Part shown: positions 8,466 through 23,719 of the stretch, in pieces
Layout: each line of letters begins with the position of its first letter
How positions within the stretch are numbered: position 1 is the stretch's first letter
Assembly: GCA_964291215.2 (NCBI GenBank)
Contig: OZ219790.1
Location: forward strand, 576,001-640,000
Reading direction: 5' to 3'
From: Alphaproteobacteria bacterium
GTDB lineage: Bacteria > Pseudomonadota > Alphaproteobacteria > MPNO01 > UBA830
Length of the DNA: 64,000 nt
The notes under the pieces: generated by a model
Seen by the model: the letters and a program-made list of their open reading frames with translations, nothing else
What the model was told of the DNA's origin: nothing
Database searches by the model: none
Program-made: the position numbers and the translations under genes

Positions 8466-11303
8466 ATGCCGAAGGTCCATTTCGAAGACGCGTTCGAGGA
8501 GTTGACCGGACATCCGCCTTTTCCTTGGCAACAGAGATTATACGACAAGCATTTTGGGCGAGGTATGCTGCCCCCGGCGGTGGATATTCCCACAGGCTTG
8601 GGTAAAACCGCTATCATGGCGGTCTGGTTGCTGGCGCGGGCGGCAGGCGCACCCTTGCCCCGGCGCCTCGTCTATGTCGTCGACCGGCGGGCCGTGGTCG
8701 ATCAGGCAACCGAGTTCGCCGGGCAACTGAGGGAACGGCTGGGGGAGGACGAACGGCTTGGGCCGGTGCGATCCGCCCTCGGCCTCGGCAGCAAACGGTT
8801 GCCGATCTCCACCCTGCGCGGCCGGCACGCCGACAACCGGGAATGGATGGCTGATCCGGCGGCGCCGGCGATTGTCGTCGGCACCGTGGACATGGTAGGA
8901 TCGCGGCTACTGTTCGAAGGTTATGGTCTGTCCCGCCGGATGCGGCCCTTTGCGGCGGCGCTGCTTGGATGCGATGCCTTGGTGCTGCTGGACGAAGCGC
9001 ATCTTGTTCGCCCCTTCGAGCGCTTGCTCAAGACGATTGAAAAGGGGCGGCGGCGGGCGTTCGCGCAAGAGGCGGATGCGCAGGCGGGCGCGTTCGCCGG
9101 CCCTGCGGTCCACGATGGATTGCCGCCACCTTTCCATGTCCTGCCCCTGTCGGCCACACTGGGCCGCGAGTCCGATGGAAACCTGTTCCGCCTGAATGAC
9201 GATGATCGGAAGAACGGCACGGTCCGCGCCCGGTTGGAAGCACGCAAGAGATTGACAGTCGAGGACCTCCCGCCGGGTCTTAATCTCAATCAGGCACTTG
9301 TCGACCGGGCCTGGAACCTGATGGAGGCCGCTTGCGCAAACGCCGGACAGCCGCCTGCCGTGGCGGTCTACTGCGACCGCCGCACCGATGCCGGGAAGGT
9401 GGCGGACGATCTTCGCAAACGCGCCAGTCAAGAGCGGCCTCAGTCCGAAGTAATCCTCCTTGTTGGTGGCCGGCGGGTGCGTGAGCGGCACAAAGCCGCC
9501 GAAAAGTTGCAGGAACATGGCCTTGTCGGCGAAGCCAAAGACCTGCGCCGCACGCCCGTGTTCCTCGTCGCAACCTCCGCTGGCGAGGTCGGGGTCGATC
9601 TCGACGCCGATCACATGGTCTGCGACCTAGTGTCTTGGGAGCGTATGGTGCAGCGGCTCGGCCGGGTCAACCGGCGCGGTACGGGCGACGCGATGGTACG
9701 AGTGATCGACCAGGGCAAGCCGGACGAGAAGAAGGCGGGCGCGCTCGCCGTCGCCCGCCACGAGGCAGCGCGCAGTCTTCTTGATGCCCTGCCGCTGGGC
9801 GAGGCCGGCGAACGCCCGACCGGCCCCGGCGTCTTGGAGAACCTCGCCGCCGACCCGGCCCAACATGCACGAATCGCCGAAGCCACGACGCGAATGCCGC
9901 TTTACCCAGCGCTCACCCGCCCGCTGATCGATTCTTGGGCGATGACCGCGCTGGAACACCATGCCGGCCGGCCGGAAATCGGCCCGTGGCTGAGGGGTTG
10001 GGTGGAAGACAACGAGCCGCAAACCGCCGTGGTCTGGCGGCACCATCTGCCGCTGCACTTCCGGACGGACGGCGGCGCAGTGCAGGCGCAGGCGGAACAG
10101 GCGGTTCGGGCCTTCTTTGCCGCCGCACCGCCGCAGGCGGCGGAACTTCTGGAAACCGAGACGTCGCGAGTGGTTGATTGGCTCAAGAAGCGCGTGCGCA
10201 AGCAGTTGAAGGAATTGGATAGGGCGGCCGCGCGGGCGATCGAACCGTATCCCGCTCCCGTCGGCGACAGCGCGAACGACGAGGAAGAAACTGCCAGAGG
10301 CACGCGCCTTCTCGCGCCGCTGACCCGAAGCGGCCCCATCGCCTTTCTGGTCGACGCCGCCAACCGCCCGGCGGACGCTCTGAGCCTTGCGAAGATCGAC
10401 AGAATCCAGTCCCAGAACCTAAAAGCGCTACTTGCCGGCAAGCGGCTTGTGGTGGACGCGCGGTTCGGCGGAATCAGAAACGGCCTGCTGGACGATACGG
10501 CCAATGATTGTGCTTGTACGATTGAGGATAATTGGGGCAAGCCGGGCGATGATGGCGACGATCCAGAAGAGAATCCCTGGAACCTGAAGGTCGAGGTGTG
10601 TTCGGAAGATGCGCATAATTCCGACGGCTGGCAGGCGGTTCTGGAGGCGCCCTATTGCGTATCGGCGGAGGGCGAGACCTGGTCCCGGCTGATCATCTCG
10701 AAGCGCCGCGGCACCGGCGAGAGCGAGGACGCCCGGGCGATGGCACGCAAGGCCCAACGCCTTGACGAGCATCAGGAATGGGCGGAAAAGGAAGCCGCGC
10801 GTATCGCCGATGCGCTCGACCTCCCGGAGGCCGACAGGGCCATGCTGACCGCCGCTGCCCGCCATCACGACGACGGCAAGACGGCGAAACGCTGGCAGGA
10901 GGCCTTCAACGCGCCCCAAGACTGGCACGATGGTGGACCCTATGCCAAGACAACGGGGCCTTTCAATCGCCAGCGGCTGAACGGCTACCGGCACGAATTC
11001 AAGTCGGTGCTCGACGCCGAGAGGGTTGGCCTCGACGGCCTCGACCGTGGCGACCCGCGATTCGAACTGGCGCTGCACCTGATCGCCGCGCATCACGGCC
11101 GCGCCAGGCCCGGCATCGGCATCGAGGGCTACGACGAGGAGCCGCCGAGCGCGGCAGAACAAGCCGCGCGCGCGATTGCACTGCGCTTCGCGCGCCTGCA
11201 ACGGGAGTGGGGACCCTGGGGTCTCGCCTGGTGGGAGGCACTACTGCGCGCCGCCGACCAGGCGGCCTCGCGGCGGCTCGACGACGGAGAGGGGGACGCA
11301 TGA
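8466..11303 (+). CDS. cas3: Type I-G Cas3 helicase with C-terminal HD nuclease
   Basis: IPTGLGKT, DEAH, EVGVDLD, QRLGRVNRRG; C-terminal HHDDGK, RHE, AHHG, AADQAAS. Helicase-then-HD order is typical of I-G. Confidence 0.96.
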   Translation: MPKVHFEDAFEELTGHPPFPWQQRLYDKHFGRGMLPPAVDIPTGLGKTAIMAVWLLARAAGAPLPRRLVYVVDRRAVVDQATEFAGQLRERLGEDERLGPVRSALGLGSKRLPISTLRGRHADNREWMADPAAPAIVVGTVDMVGSRLLFEGYGLSRRMRPFAAALLGCDALVLLDEAHLVRPFERLLKTIEKGRRRAFAQEADAQAGAFAGPAVHDGLPPPFHVLPLSATLGRESDGNLFRLNDDDRKNGTVRARLEARKRLTVEDLPPGLNLNQALVDRAWNLMEAACANAGQPPAVAVYCDRRTDAGKVADDLRKRASQERPQSEVILLVGGRRVRERHKAAEKLQEHGLVGEAKDLRRTPVFLVATSAGEVGVDLDADHMVCDLVSWERMVQRLGRVNRRGTGDAMVRVIDQGKPDEKKAGALAVARHEAARSLLDALPLGEAGERPTGPGVLENLAADPAQHARIAEATTRMPLYPALTRPLIDSWAMTALEHHAGRPEIGPWLRGWVEDNEPQTAVVWRHHLPLHFRTDGGAVQAQAEQAVRAFFAAAPPQAAELLETETSRVVDWLKKRVRKQLKELDRAAARAIEPYPAPVGDSANDEEETARGTRLLAPLTRSGPIAFLVDAANRPADALSLAKIDRIQSQNLKALLAGKRLVVDARFGGIRNGLLDDTANDCACTIEDNWGKPGDDGDDPEENPWNLKVEVCSEDAHNSDGWQAVLEAPYCVSAEGETWSRLIISKRRGTGESEDARAMARKAQRLDEHQEWAEKEAARIADALDLPEADRAMLTAAARHHDDGKTAKRWQEAFNAPQDWHDGGPYAKTTGPFNRQRLNGYRHEFKSVLDAERVGLDGLDRGDPRFELALHLIAAHHGRARPGIGIEGYDEEPPSAAEQAARAIALRFARLQREWGPWGLAWWEALLRAADQAASRRLDDGEGDA

Positions 11304-22610: not shown

Positions 22611-23719
22611 GCCGCCCGCTCTACAACGATGCGCATTCGGACCCAAAAGCCTGCCCCGACGGTGCACATGCCGGCCTCTGGTTCGACAAGTTTTGCAACA
22701 CCTGGGGAGACGACGACGATAACTGGGCCATGTCGGCGGAAAAGAAGCTTTGCTGGATCAAATCCGTCGCCGGGAAGCCGGTCGGCGACCGGACGCACAT
22801 TGGCGAAAATGCCCGGCGGCAGGCGCGCATGGTCGCAAGCCTGGGCGGCTGCTTCGCGGTGTTCGCGGCGGAATCGCGCTTCGTGACCGGACTGGGCCGC
22901 AGCCATCCGGTCGAGAACGGCTTCGCCTGGCACCCCGTGCTGGGGACGCCGTATCTGCCGGGCAGTTCGGTCAAGGGCCTGCTCCGGGCGTGGGTGAAGC
23001 GGGACGCCGAACCGTGCCCCGATCCCGAAATGCGGGATCGTGTGTTCGGGAAGCGCGATCGGGCGGGCAGCGTCTGTTTCCTCGATGCCGTTCCCATCTG
23101 CCCGGTGCGGCTGGCCGCAGATGTCATGACCCCGCACCATGCCGGCTGGACCATCGACAAGCCGCCGGGCGATTGGCGCTCCCCCACCCCGATTCCCTTT
23201 CTCGTCACGGCGGAAGAGGCGCCGTTTCTCTTCGGCTTCGCGCCGCGCGCGCCCCTGGACGACGACGATCTCGGCACCGTCTTCGGATGGCTGTGCGAGG
23301 CCCTCGAATGGGCCGGCGGCGGCGCGAAAACGGCGGTCGGCTACGGCCGGTTCCGCCATGACGAGGGGCGGACCCGCGATCTGGCGCAGGCACTGGAAGA
23401 CGAGGAGCGCGCACACCGCGAAGCGCAGGAGCGTCGGCGGCTCGAAGAGACTCCCGAAGAACGCTGGTATGTGGAGGTCGAGGGCCGATCGGAAGCCGAG
23501 GTCCTCGAACTGGTACGGATCCATCTCGAAAAGGAACGCCTCACCGATCCCGACGAACGCCGGGCCTTCGCGCACACCGTCTCGACGCTGCATCCGGATT
23601 GGGTCAAGGGTTGGCGCCGTGGAGACCGCAACGACCGAGGTACCAATATCGGGCGCAAGAAACTGAAGGAGCGCGCACGTCTCCTCGACGAGGCACACTC
23701 GGAGAGCGGTTCGCATTGA
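22607..23719 (+). CDS. cmr6: Type III-B RAMP Cmr6 with C-terminal extension
   Basis: GLGRSHPVENG, GTPYLPGSSVKG, DVMTPH, PIPFL, GGGAKTAVGYG. Confidence 0.95.
   Translation: MSRPLYNDAHSDPKACPDGAHAGLWFDKFCNTWGDDDDNWAMSAEKKLCWIKSVAGKPVGDRTHIGENARRQARMVASLGGCFAVFAAESRFVTGLGRSHPVENGFAWHPVLGTPYLPGSSVKGLLRAWVKRDAEPCPDPEMRDRVFGKRDRAGSVCFLDAVPICPVRLAADVMTPHHAGWTIDKPPGDWRSPTPIPFLVTAEEAPFLFGFAPRAPLDDDDLGTVFGWLCEALEWAGGGAKTAVGYGRFRHDEGRTRDLAQALEDEERAHREAQERRRLEETPEERWYVEVEGRSEAEVLELVRIHLEKERLTDPDERRAFAHTVSTLHPDWVKGWRRGDRNDRGTNIGRKKLKERARLLDEAHSESGSH

What the first reader, a model, noticed from the sequence alone, without database searches (positions are those of the whole stretch)
8466..23719. One translationally coupled 11-gene operon merging type I-G and type III-B, sharing one visible array with no standalone cas6
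Seen: cas3-cas8g-csb1-csb2-csx1-cmr1..6 on one strand. Start and stop codons or ORF ends overlap at nearly every junction (11300, 12184, TAATG at 15433-15437, 17197, 18378, 20273, 21391, 22206, 22607), with one 3-bp gap. The I-G/III boundary itself is coupled. Known: type III systems often borrow crRNA and adaptation from type I, and Csb2 is the I-G processing nuclease. Inference: a co-expressed DNA- and RNA-targeting hybrid in which Cmr is loaded with Csb2-processed crRNA carrying an ATTGAAGC handle.
Basis: partly seen in the sequence, partly recalled or inferred. Interest (0 to 1): 0.75.

Follow-up and report, generated by a model that had tools for sequence, protein, structure and literature searches.

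The report
Type III-B CRISPR borrowing I-G guides
A bacterium carries a DNA-cutting (type I-G) and an RNA-sensing (type III-B) CRISPR machine in one unbroken gene run beside one compatible spacer array, and the RNA-sensing machine likely gets its guides cut by the I-G protein Csb2, a known kind of sharing whose Csb2-based form recurs in other microbes.

Summary
Observation confirmed. cas3-cas8g2-csb1-csb2-csx1-cmr1..6 lie on one strand with nine overlapping junctions and one 3-bp gap. The 99%-complete genome has no detectable cas6. Its only other CRISPR locus is type II-C. The 97-repeat I-G array has the Csb2 cutting geometry (8-nt AUUGAAGC handle).

Csb2-fed Cmr is likely (0.75) and has a precedent: Haliangium Cmr worked with csb2 in E. 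coli. Co-transcription is untested.

The fusion is optional: 3 of 68 related csb2 loci carry it, and the same Cmr cassette occurs uncoupled elsewhere.

Two additions:
(1) This Csb2 (738 aa) has two Cas6-like domains, and only the last carries the histidine at the position likely equivalent to the known catalytic one.
(2) Among 34 distinct metagenomic Cmr relatives with at least 3 kb upstream, 12 have a stand-alone Csb2-type Cas6-domain gene, 4 adjoining I-G genes and 3 an ordinary cas6. These stand-alone genes show purifying selection, and Methanothrix homologues are common.

Verdict: a new variant of a known kind, of moderate interest.

The parts
4..5216 (-). Type I-G CRISPR array: 72 repeats in the window, 97 in the genome (G000:C1:574174-581216). 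36-nt repeat with an 8-bp hairpin, 4 nt, then the predicted 8-nt handle AUUGAAGC; spacers 34-40 nt
5217..5474 (-). Leader region, with a weak promoter-like site at 5249-5221 (9 of 12 matches)
   Evidence: orientation inferred from the degenerate far end
5475..5768 (-). cas2
   Evidence: TIGR01573, PF09827
5781..7580 (-). cas4-cas1 fusion of type I-G (start probably near 7520)
   Evidence: NF049935, 754 bits against cut-off 560
7595..8017 (-). Multi-copy element remnant between cas4/1 and cas3; not a cas gene
   Evidence: no family hit; about 10 related copies in the genome at 68-84% DNA identity
8197..8226 (+). Sigma70-like promoter site TTGACA-18-TATCAT (11 of 12), 240 nt upstream of cas3
   Evidence: consensus match only
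8466..11303 (+). cas3g, helicase with C-terminal HD nuclease
   Evidence: TIGR02621 above cut-off; motifs
11300..12187 (+). cas8g2 (short GSU0052 type)
   Evidence: TIGR04106 above cut-off
12184..13215 (+). csb1 / cas7g
   Evidence: TIGR02570, PF09617
13219..15435 (+). csb2, 738 aa, three-module form: Cas5-like N-terminus plus two Cas6-like domains
   Evidence: TIGR02165 with two stretches
13951..14703 (+). Csb2 first Cas6-like domain (D2, residues 245-495); Tyr489 where His-type domains have His
14725..15387 (+). Csb2 second Cas6-like domain (D3, residues 503-723); His717 before the glycine loop; likely the crRNA-cutting site
   Evidence: AF2 pLDDT 90.5; Cas6 fold, Z 12.3 to Csf5 6h9h_B (rmsd 3.7, 190 aligned) and Z 10.7 to S. 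thermophilus Cas6; His in 115 of 120 homologues
15435..17213 (+). csx1-type effector, CARF-HEPN-CARF; DxTHG at 128, HEPN R385-x4-H390; the C-terminal CARF is possibly a ring nuclease (inferred)
   Evidence: PDLC01840, E 1.7e-132; below the TIGR02221 cut-off; motifs
17197..18381 (+). cmr1
   Evidence: TIGR01894
18378..20276 (+). cmr2 / cas10; no N-terminal HD domain, intact GGDD at residues 403-406
   Evidence: TIGR02577; PF12469 from residue 6; PF22335
20273..21394 (+). cmr3
   Evidence: PF09700, 218 bits; below the TIGR01888 cut-off
21391..22209 (+). cmr4; Asp in the DLP motif present (equivalence to the catalytic Asp is recalled)
   Evidence: TIGR02580
22206..22610 (+). cmr5
   Evidence: TIGR01881, PF09701
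22607..23719 (+). cmr6
   Evidence: TIGR01898

Best explanation
An intact type I-G operon carries a complete csx1-cmr1-6 type III-B cassette joined to its 3' end, and both machines likely use crRNAs from the one I-G array, likely cut by the last, histidine-bearing Cas6 domain of Csb2. Inferred steps: Cas4/1-Cas2 adds spacers. Csb2 D3 cuts 4 nt after the hairpin, leaving the handle AUUGAAGC. Cascade (Cas8g2, Csb1, Csb2) with Cas3 destroys DNA. Some crRNA, presumably after host nucleases trim the 3' hairpin, loads Cmr. Cmr cuts complementary RNA and makes cyclic oligoadenylate (GGDD intact, no HD DNase). This activates the CARF-HEPN RNase, possibly switched off by its second CARF domain. The cassette is an optional, mobile add-on that depends on a Csb2-type Cas6 domain somewhere in the cell, not on this exact junction.
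For: No cas6 in a 99.3%-complete, 2-contig genome. The only Csb2-type Cas6 domains in the genome are the two in this gene. The only other array is type II-C. The repeat fold leaves 12 nt after the stem, matching the Thioalkalivibrio Csb2 cut 4 nt after the stem with an 8-nt handle and a catalytic His near the C-terminus. D3 has a Cas6 fold and His in 115 of 120 homologues. H. ochraceum cmr1-6 plus csb2 and a mini-array gave target-dependent killing in E. coli. The -1 junction is shared by L008 and L080. L080 keeps only D3 in front of csx1. Among 34 distinct Cmr1-selected metagenome loci with at least 3 kb upstream, 12 have a stand-alone Csb2-type Cas6 domain, 4 adjoining I-G genes, 5 an I-G-type array or divergent I-G genes, 3 an ordinary cas6 and 10 none of these (labels set by hand). 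dN/dS is 0.10-0.30 in the 6 of 7 stand-alone pairs with a finite dS. I-G operons also adjoin a much more distant Cmr clade (L091-L094).
Against: There is no RNA or biochemical data for this locus. Thioalkalivibrio Csb2 stays bound to the hairpin (KD 43 nM), which could limit hand-over to Cmr. Only 3 of 68 long-Csb2 loci have the adjoining cassette, and 3 of 20 among close relatives. L022 has an 18-nt gap instead of coupling. L080 also has a second, complete I-G system across the array, and L102 has a similar layout without the D3 remnant, so D3 in L080 may be an unfinished deletion. Seven of the 12 stand-alone cases are one clade and are not independent. Histidine-less Csb2 domains sit beside Cmr with no His-type partner seen in L120, L155 and L161, so assigning catalysis to D3 alone is not secure. 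Spacers show no strand bias (44 sense-like, 50 antisense-like of 94; classifier only 73% accurate). The 16-of-16 presence of Csb2 in Cmr genomes is largely by selection: 14 of them were reached through csb2.
Confidence: 0.75

Rival explanations
1. Cmr uses the same array, but the cut is made by another enzyme: Csb2 D2, Csb1, or a host RNase such as RNase E.
For: B. animalis Csb1 was reported to process pre-crRNA redundantly with Csb2 (preprint). RNase E matures crRNA for a cas6-less III-Bv system in Synechocystis. His-less Csb2 domains occur alone beside Cmr in L120, L155 and L161.
Against: In Thioalkalivibrio only Csb2, not Cas7 or Cas8g, cut the repeat. His717 is kept in 115 of 120 homologues. 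107 of 120 stand-alone homologues keep H[FY]G[LM]G.
Confidence: 0.14
2. The Cmr cassette is a recently arrived passenger that is transcribed separately or poorly and is rarely loaded. The coupled junction is an accident of insertion.
For: 22% of co-directional neighbours in this genome look coupled. Close I-G relatives mostly lack the cassette (17 of 20). Among 150 relatives only one (G040) has a close Cmr2, and none of the 4 same-genus genomes does. Csb2 holds the hairpin tightly.
Against: All seven genes are intact with key motifs. dN/dS is 0.25-0.37 against L080 for three cassette genes. The -1 junction persists in three lineages at dS up to about 0.8. No promoter- or terminator-like site lies at the boundary (weak scan).
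Confidence: 0.08
3. An undetected cas6 or type III array elsewhere in the cell, or the type II-C array, supplies Cmr.
For: Cas6 families are divergent: TIGR01877 scored a true type III Cas6 in G165 only weakly. The genome is a MAG-like assembly with 4.3% contamination.
Against: Six profiles with working controls, local profiles and tblastn found nothing. The array scan finds only the I-G and II-C arrays. II-C crRNAs lack an 8-nt 5' handle (recalled).
Confidence: 0.03

Closest known systems
Haliangium ochraceum type III-B (Steens et al., bioRxiv 10.1101/2023.06.23.546230; passages and section 6 read; extended data not seen)
   Same: Cmr1-6 run on crRNA from a mini-array co-expressed with csb2, called 'a cas6 homologue'; target-dependent cOA signalling worked.
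   Different: csb2 was used as a tool. In the text I read there is no csb2-minus control, the native gene order is not described, and the effectors are SAVED-CHAT/PCaspase rather than CARF-HEPN-CARF.
Type I-G of Thioalkalivibrio sulfidiphilus (Shangguan et al., 10.1101/2022.08.08.503147 / PMC9638904; passages read)
   Same: Cas3, Cas8g, Cas7 and Csb2; 36-nt repeat cut 4 nt after the hairpin to give an 8-nt handle; catalytic His near the C-terminus.
   Different: That Csb2 has two domains (Cas5 plus one Cas6). Here there are two Cas6-like domains, a short Cas8g2 and an attached Cmr cassette.
Type I / type III complex loci: I-F with III-B in Marinomonas mediterranea, I-B with III-B (Bernheim et al. 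PMC7145637, passages; Makarova et al. PMC12669027, passages; Silas et al. PMC5576922, listing only)
   Same: One adaptation module and one type I repeat feed several interference modules; most type III systems take Cas6 in trans.
   Different: The partner is I-G, whose nuclease is a Cascade subunit domain. The passages read report no I-U/I-G association with III-B.
Pyrococcus furiosus Cst ('type I-G') with Cmr (PMC4666368, listing only)
   Same: [quoted passage not shown]
   Different: That 'I-G' is an older label for a Cst system now filed under I-B, with an ordinary Cas6 (recalled). It is not the Csb1/Csb2 subtype.

Membership tests
Type I-G (I-U) | Cas3g with C-terminal HD domain | tested here: met
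   TIGR02621, 621 bits against cut-off 400; HD motif at residue ~800
Type I-G (I-U) | Cas8g, Csb1 (Cas7g), Csb2 (Cas5-Cas6 fusion) | tested here: met
   TIGR04106, TIGR02570, TIGR02165 all above cut-off; Csb2 carries an extra Cas6-like domain
Type I-G (I-U) | Cas4-Cas1 fusion, Cas2, and a 36-nt hairpin repeat ending TTGAAGC | tested here: met
   G-type repeat tail as in PMC11237760
Type I-G (I-U) | TTN PAM-dependent DNA interference | not testable with these tools
   no protospacer was found in the own genome; external targets were not searched
Type III-B (Cmr) | Cas10/Cmr2 plus Cmr1, Cmr3, Cmr4, Cmr5, Cmr6 | tested here: met
   Cmr3 passes Pfam but not the TIGR01888 cut-off
Type III-B (Cmr) | Active cyclase palm (GGDD) with a cOA-sensing effector | tested here: met
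   GGDD at 403-406; CARF-HEPN-CARF with R-x4-H; motifs only, activity untested
Type III-B (Cmr) | Own cas6 gene (optional in type III) | tested here: not met
   absence is common in type III
Cas6 endoribonucleases (Csb2 D3) | Double-ferredoxin RAMP fold with C-terminal glycine loop | tested here: met
   the top 8 structural matches are Cas6/Csf5 or Cascade entries, Z 12.3-8.8
Cas6 endoribonucleases (Csb2 D3) | Site-specific repeat cleavage | not testable with these tools
   inferred from His position and repeat geometry
Single operon of 11 genes | One transcript across the csb2/csx1 boundary | not testable with these tools
   no RNA holder listed; overlap and a promoter-like site only
Csx1 fused to a ring nuclease | The C-terminal CARF degrades cOA | tested here: inconclusive
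   the CARF_HEPN_CARF model matches over the full length; the C-terminal part has only a faint CARF hit in Pfam; no solved relative

The most novel reading that the evidence does not exclude
The histidine-bearing Cas6 domain of Csb2 is a free-moving crRNA-processing module, the dedicated 'cas6' of a whole branch of type III-B systems. It appears as a stand-alone ~265-aa gene (widespread in Methanothrix, mislabelled 'Csb2'), as a remnant, or as the third domain of a long Csb2. In the three-domain protein, labour is split: the His-less D2 holds the hairpin in Cascade while D3 cuts and releases crRNA for Cmr.
Probability: 0.25. Interest if true: 0.65.

Novelty: new variant of a known kind. Interest (0 to 1): 0.42.

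Why it matters
It gives a clean natural test of how one crRNA pool is divided between a DNA-cutting and an RNA-sensing complex when the processing nuclease is itself a Cascade subunit that holds its product. Here there is one array, no cas6, and one His to mutate. It also flags an annotation trap: short 'Csb2' genes beside cmr operons are likely type III Cas6 genes, not signs of a type I-G system, so such loci may be miscounted as cas6-less or hybrid. The general principle, type III borrowing from type I, is established, so this extends known biology rather than overturning it.

Tried and rejected
- Extra Cas6 domain evolved for type III: rejected as a rule, because the ~730-aa form is common (120 of 120 top homologues, 668-768 aa) and 65 of 68 loci lack the adjoining Cmr.
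- L080 as proof that D3 is kept for Cmr: weakened by its second I-G system and by L102.
- Spacer strand bias: none seen, and the classifier is weak.
- Self-targeting spacers: none. External protospacers were not searched.
- RNA evidence: no RNA holder listed. Contigs of X1 show presence only, and their extra spacers may come from other organisms.
- Full-length Csb2 model: pTM 0.33, Foldseek only weak RAMP hits. No solved sequence relatives for Csb2 or Csx1.
- PF09559 search had no control.
- Promoter and terminator scans are at chance level overall (4 against 2.0; 8 against 13.1).
- Literature searches that found no description of a three-domain Csb2, of stand-alone Csb2-type Cas6 genes, or of I-G/III-B operons as a pattern: (open-access library only). 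PMC11237760 mentions seven hybrid myxobacterial systems in a supplement I did not see. The journal version of the Haliangium paper is not held. One search was the wrong paper.
- No complex prediction was run.
- One search covered 50 of the 80 loci (18 of 50 genomes have Cmr4). One search scanned 118 of 150 unexplained ORFs (those over 480 aa and two near-duplicate loci left out) plus 3 others.
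Full report
Observation. The eleven genes are real and in the stated order. NCBIfam, Pfam and PADLOC name them cas3g, cas8g2, csb1, csb2, a CARF-HEPN-CARF Csx1 and cmr1-6. Junctions are -4, -4, +3, -1, -17 and five times -4. About 22% of co-directional neighbours in this genome look coupled by a rough test (575 of 2574), so the run is not chance, but the single I-G/III-B junction is modest evidence on its own. A cas4/1-cas2 pair and the array lie divergently upstream. 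A promoter-like site (11 of 12) precedes cas3, and none lies at the boundary. A second species matches the whole block at 85% DNA identity (L008).

Whole genome. The assembly is 6.15 Mb in 2 contigs, 99.3% complete. It has two cas1 loci and two arrays: the 97-repeat I-G array and a type II-C locus with Cas9. The RAMP profile PF03787 finds only cmr1, cmr4 and cmr6. Six Cas6-type profiles with working controls, plus local profiles and tblastn, find no cas6.

Repeat and nuclease. On the minus strand the repeat folds into an 8-bp hairpin followed by 12 nt. Thioalkalivibrio Csb2 cuts 4 nt after the stem and leaves an 8-nt handle, using a His near the C-terminus, and stays bound to the hairpin (passages). 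The same cut here gives AUUGAAGC (inference). This Csb2 is 738 aa and holds two Cas6-like domains, residues 245-495 and 503-723. The last one models confidently (pLDDT 90.5) and matches Cas6 structures (Z 12.3 Csf5; 10.7 S. thermophilus Cas6). Among 120 close homologues the first domain has Tyr or Phe at the His position in 119, and the last has His in 115. In a domain tree the two fall on different sides, the last grouping with His-type short Csb2 and stand-alone genes (FastTree, midpoint root, no formal test). I infer that His717 is catalytic. This is not secure, since His-less domains occur alone beside Cmr (L120, L155, L161) and B. animalis Csb1 was reported to cut repeats too (passages).

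Type III module. Cmr2 starts directly with the Cmr2_N domain, so it has no HD DNase, and it keeps GGDD. Csx1 keeps DxTHG and the HEPN R-x4-H motif. The module is thus predicted to cut RNA and signal; DNA cutting is left to Cas3.

How common is the fusion? From the csb2 side, 80 GTDB loci were fetched. Of 68 with at least 2 kb downstream, 3 carry the cassette: L008, L022 and L080. L008 and L080 share the -1 overlap and a homologous Csb2 tail, while L022 has an 18-nt gap. L080 lacks cas3, cas8g2, csb1 and most of csb2 but keeps the last Cas6 domain in front of csx1. However, it also has a second I-G system across the array, and L102 has a similar layout without the remnant. In 50 of those 80 genomes, 18 have Cmr4. 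Close cassettes stand alone in L097, L100 and L103. A distant Cmr clade directly follows I-G operons in L091-L094; in L092 a His-less Csb2 is followed by a separate His-type domain gene. In 16 Cmr genomes, TIGR01877 hit 0 and PDLC01477 hit 2, while Csb2 was found in 16, but 14 were reached through csb2. Only G040 was found independently; it has Csb2 and no hit with those two Cas6 profiles.

From the Cmr side. Eighty metagenome loci were picked by Cmr1 alone, giving 73 distinct at 95% identity. Of 34 with at least 3 kb upstream: 12 have a stand-alone gene for just the Csb2-type Cas6 domain, 4 have adjoining I-G genes, 5 have an I-G-type array or divergent I-G genes, 3 have an ordinary cas6, and 10 have none of these (hand labels). 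The stand-alone genes match only the C-terminal half of PADLOC Csb2 models and no Cas6 model, and my N-terminal profile found no Cas5-like part near them (limited sensitivity). They lie in five places on the Cmr1 tree, seven of them in one clade. dN/dS is 0.10-0.30 in 6 of 7 pairs, one being saturated. A search limited to 146-468 aa returned 268 homologues at E up to 1e-20. Of the 120 listed, 101 are 310 aa or shorter, 107 keep the His motif, and those with an organism name are Methanothrix or Methanotrichaceae, labelled 'Csb2' or 'Cas5/Cas6'. Their gene context was not seen, and some may be fragments.

Mechanism. Shown: gene content, motifs, absence of detectable cas6, repeat geometry, fold of D3, recurrence. 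Inferred: co-transcription, cleavage by D3, hand-over to Cmr after 3' trimming, cOA signalling to Csx1. The benefit would be a PAM-independent second line of defence from the same spacers, as proposed for Marinomonas (passages). Spacers show no strand bias, which neither helps nor hurts given the weak classifier.

Comparison with what is known. Type III borrowing Cas6, arrays and adaptation from type I is established. H. ochraceum Cmr has already been run with csb2 in E. coli (section 6), though without a csb2-minus control in the text I read. I found no description of I-G/III-B operons as a pattern, of three-domain Csb2, or of stand-alone Csb2-type Cas6 genes. Supplements of the Haliangium preprint and of the myxobacterial survey were not seen and may bear on this. 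Two earlier AI notes of this scan reach similar readings in other genomes; they are not independent support.

Verdict. The feature is real and intact. It is a new variant of a known kind: an optional III-B cassette that likely runs on Csb2-cut guides (0.75). The more interesting part is the mobile Csb2-type Cas6 domain. Interest 0.42.

Noticed in passing
G000:C2:2063981-2069571 (L006:7982-13570): A type II-C locus: cas9 (1046 aa), cas1, cas2 and an array with a 36-nt repeat and 30-nt spacers. Long G/C homopolymer runs near cas2 may be assembly errors.
   Followed up: partly
L047:12408-13214, L048:8190-8996: A long Csb2 whose last domain has lost the His (NFGSG) is followed directly by a stand-alone 268-aa His-type Cas6 domain, suggesting compensation. 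Twelve other His-less cases show no such neighbour. L057:1529-2431 has a similar stand-alone gene after csb2.
   Followed up: partly
L120:4005-16562: A CBASS operon (TRIP13, two HORMA, cyclase, NucC) lies directly upstream of a stand-alone Csb2-type domain gene and cmr1-6 on the same strand; Cmr and CBASS may share NucC.
   Followed up: no
window 7595-8017 (-) and 23907-24437 (-): The cas block is flanked by a multi-copy element remnant (about 10 related copies in the genome) and by a DUF6788 ORF; both look like insertion-sequence debris (family not tested). A short dispersed repeat lies at ~23780-23850.
   Followed up: partly
window 23714-23722: The last 9 nt of the repeat (CATTGAAGC) overlap the cmr6 stop codon. 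Also present in L102 but not L008; probably coincidence.
   Followed up: partly
L008:2940-4667; L109: The closest relative has an IS1634 transposase where the window has cas4/1-cas2 and the array; no array or cas1 was seen within about 20 kb upstream.
   Followed up: partly
G000:C1 array, spacers 68 and 75: One spacer occurs twice in the I-G array.
   Followed up: no
L164:151-7632: QueC/TGT and TIR genes lie just upstream of cmr1, and cmr2 is followed by a Csx20-like gene; the Cmr operon seems cut short.
   Followed up: no
G166, G158, G176, G179, G180, G182, G188: Several genomes have Csb2-containing open frames of about 780-820 aa; at least two show a long insert between the N- and C-terminal parts. 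These may be the PRTase-bearing Csb2 of earlier notes.
   Followed up: no
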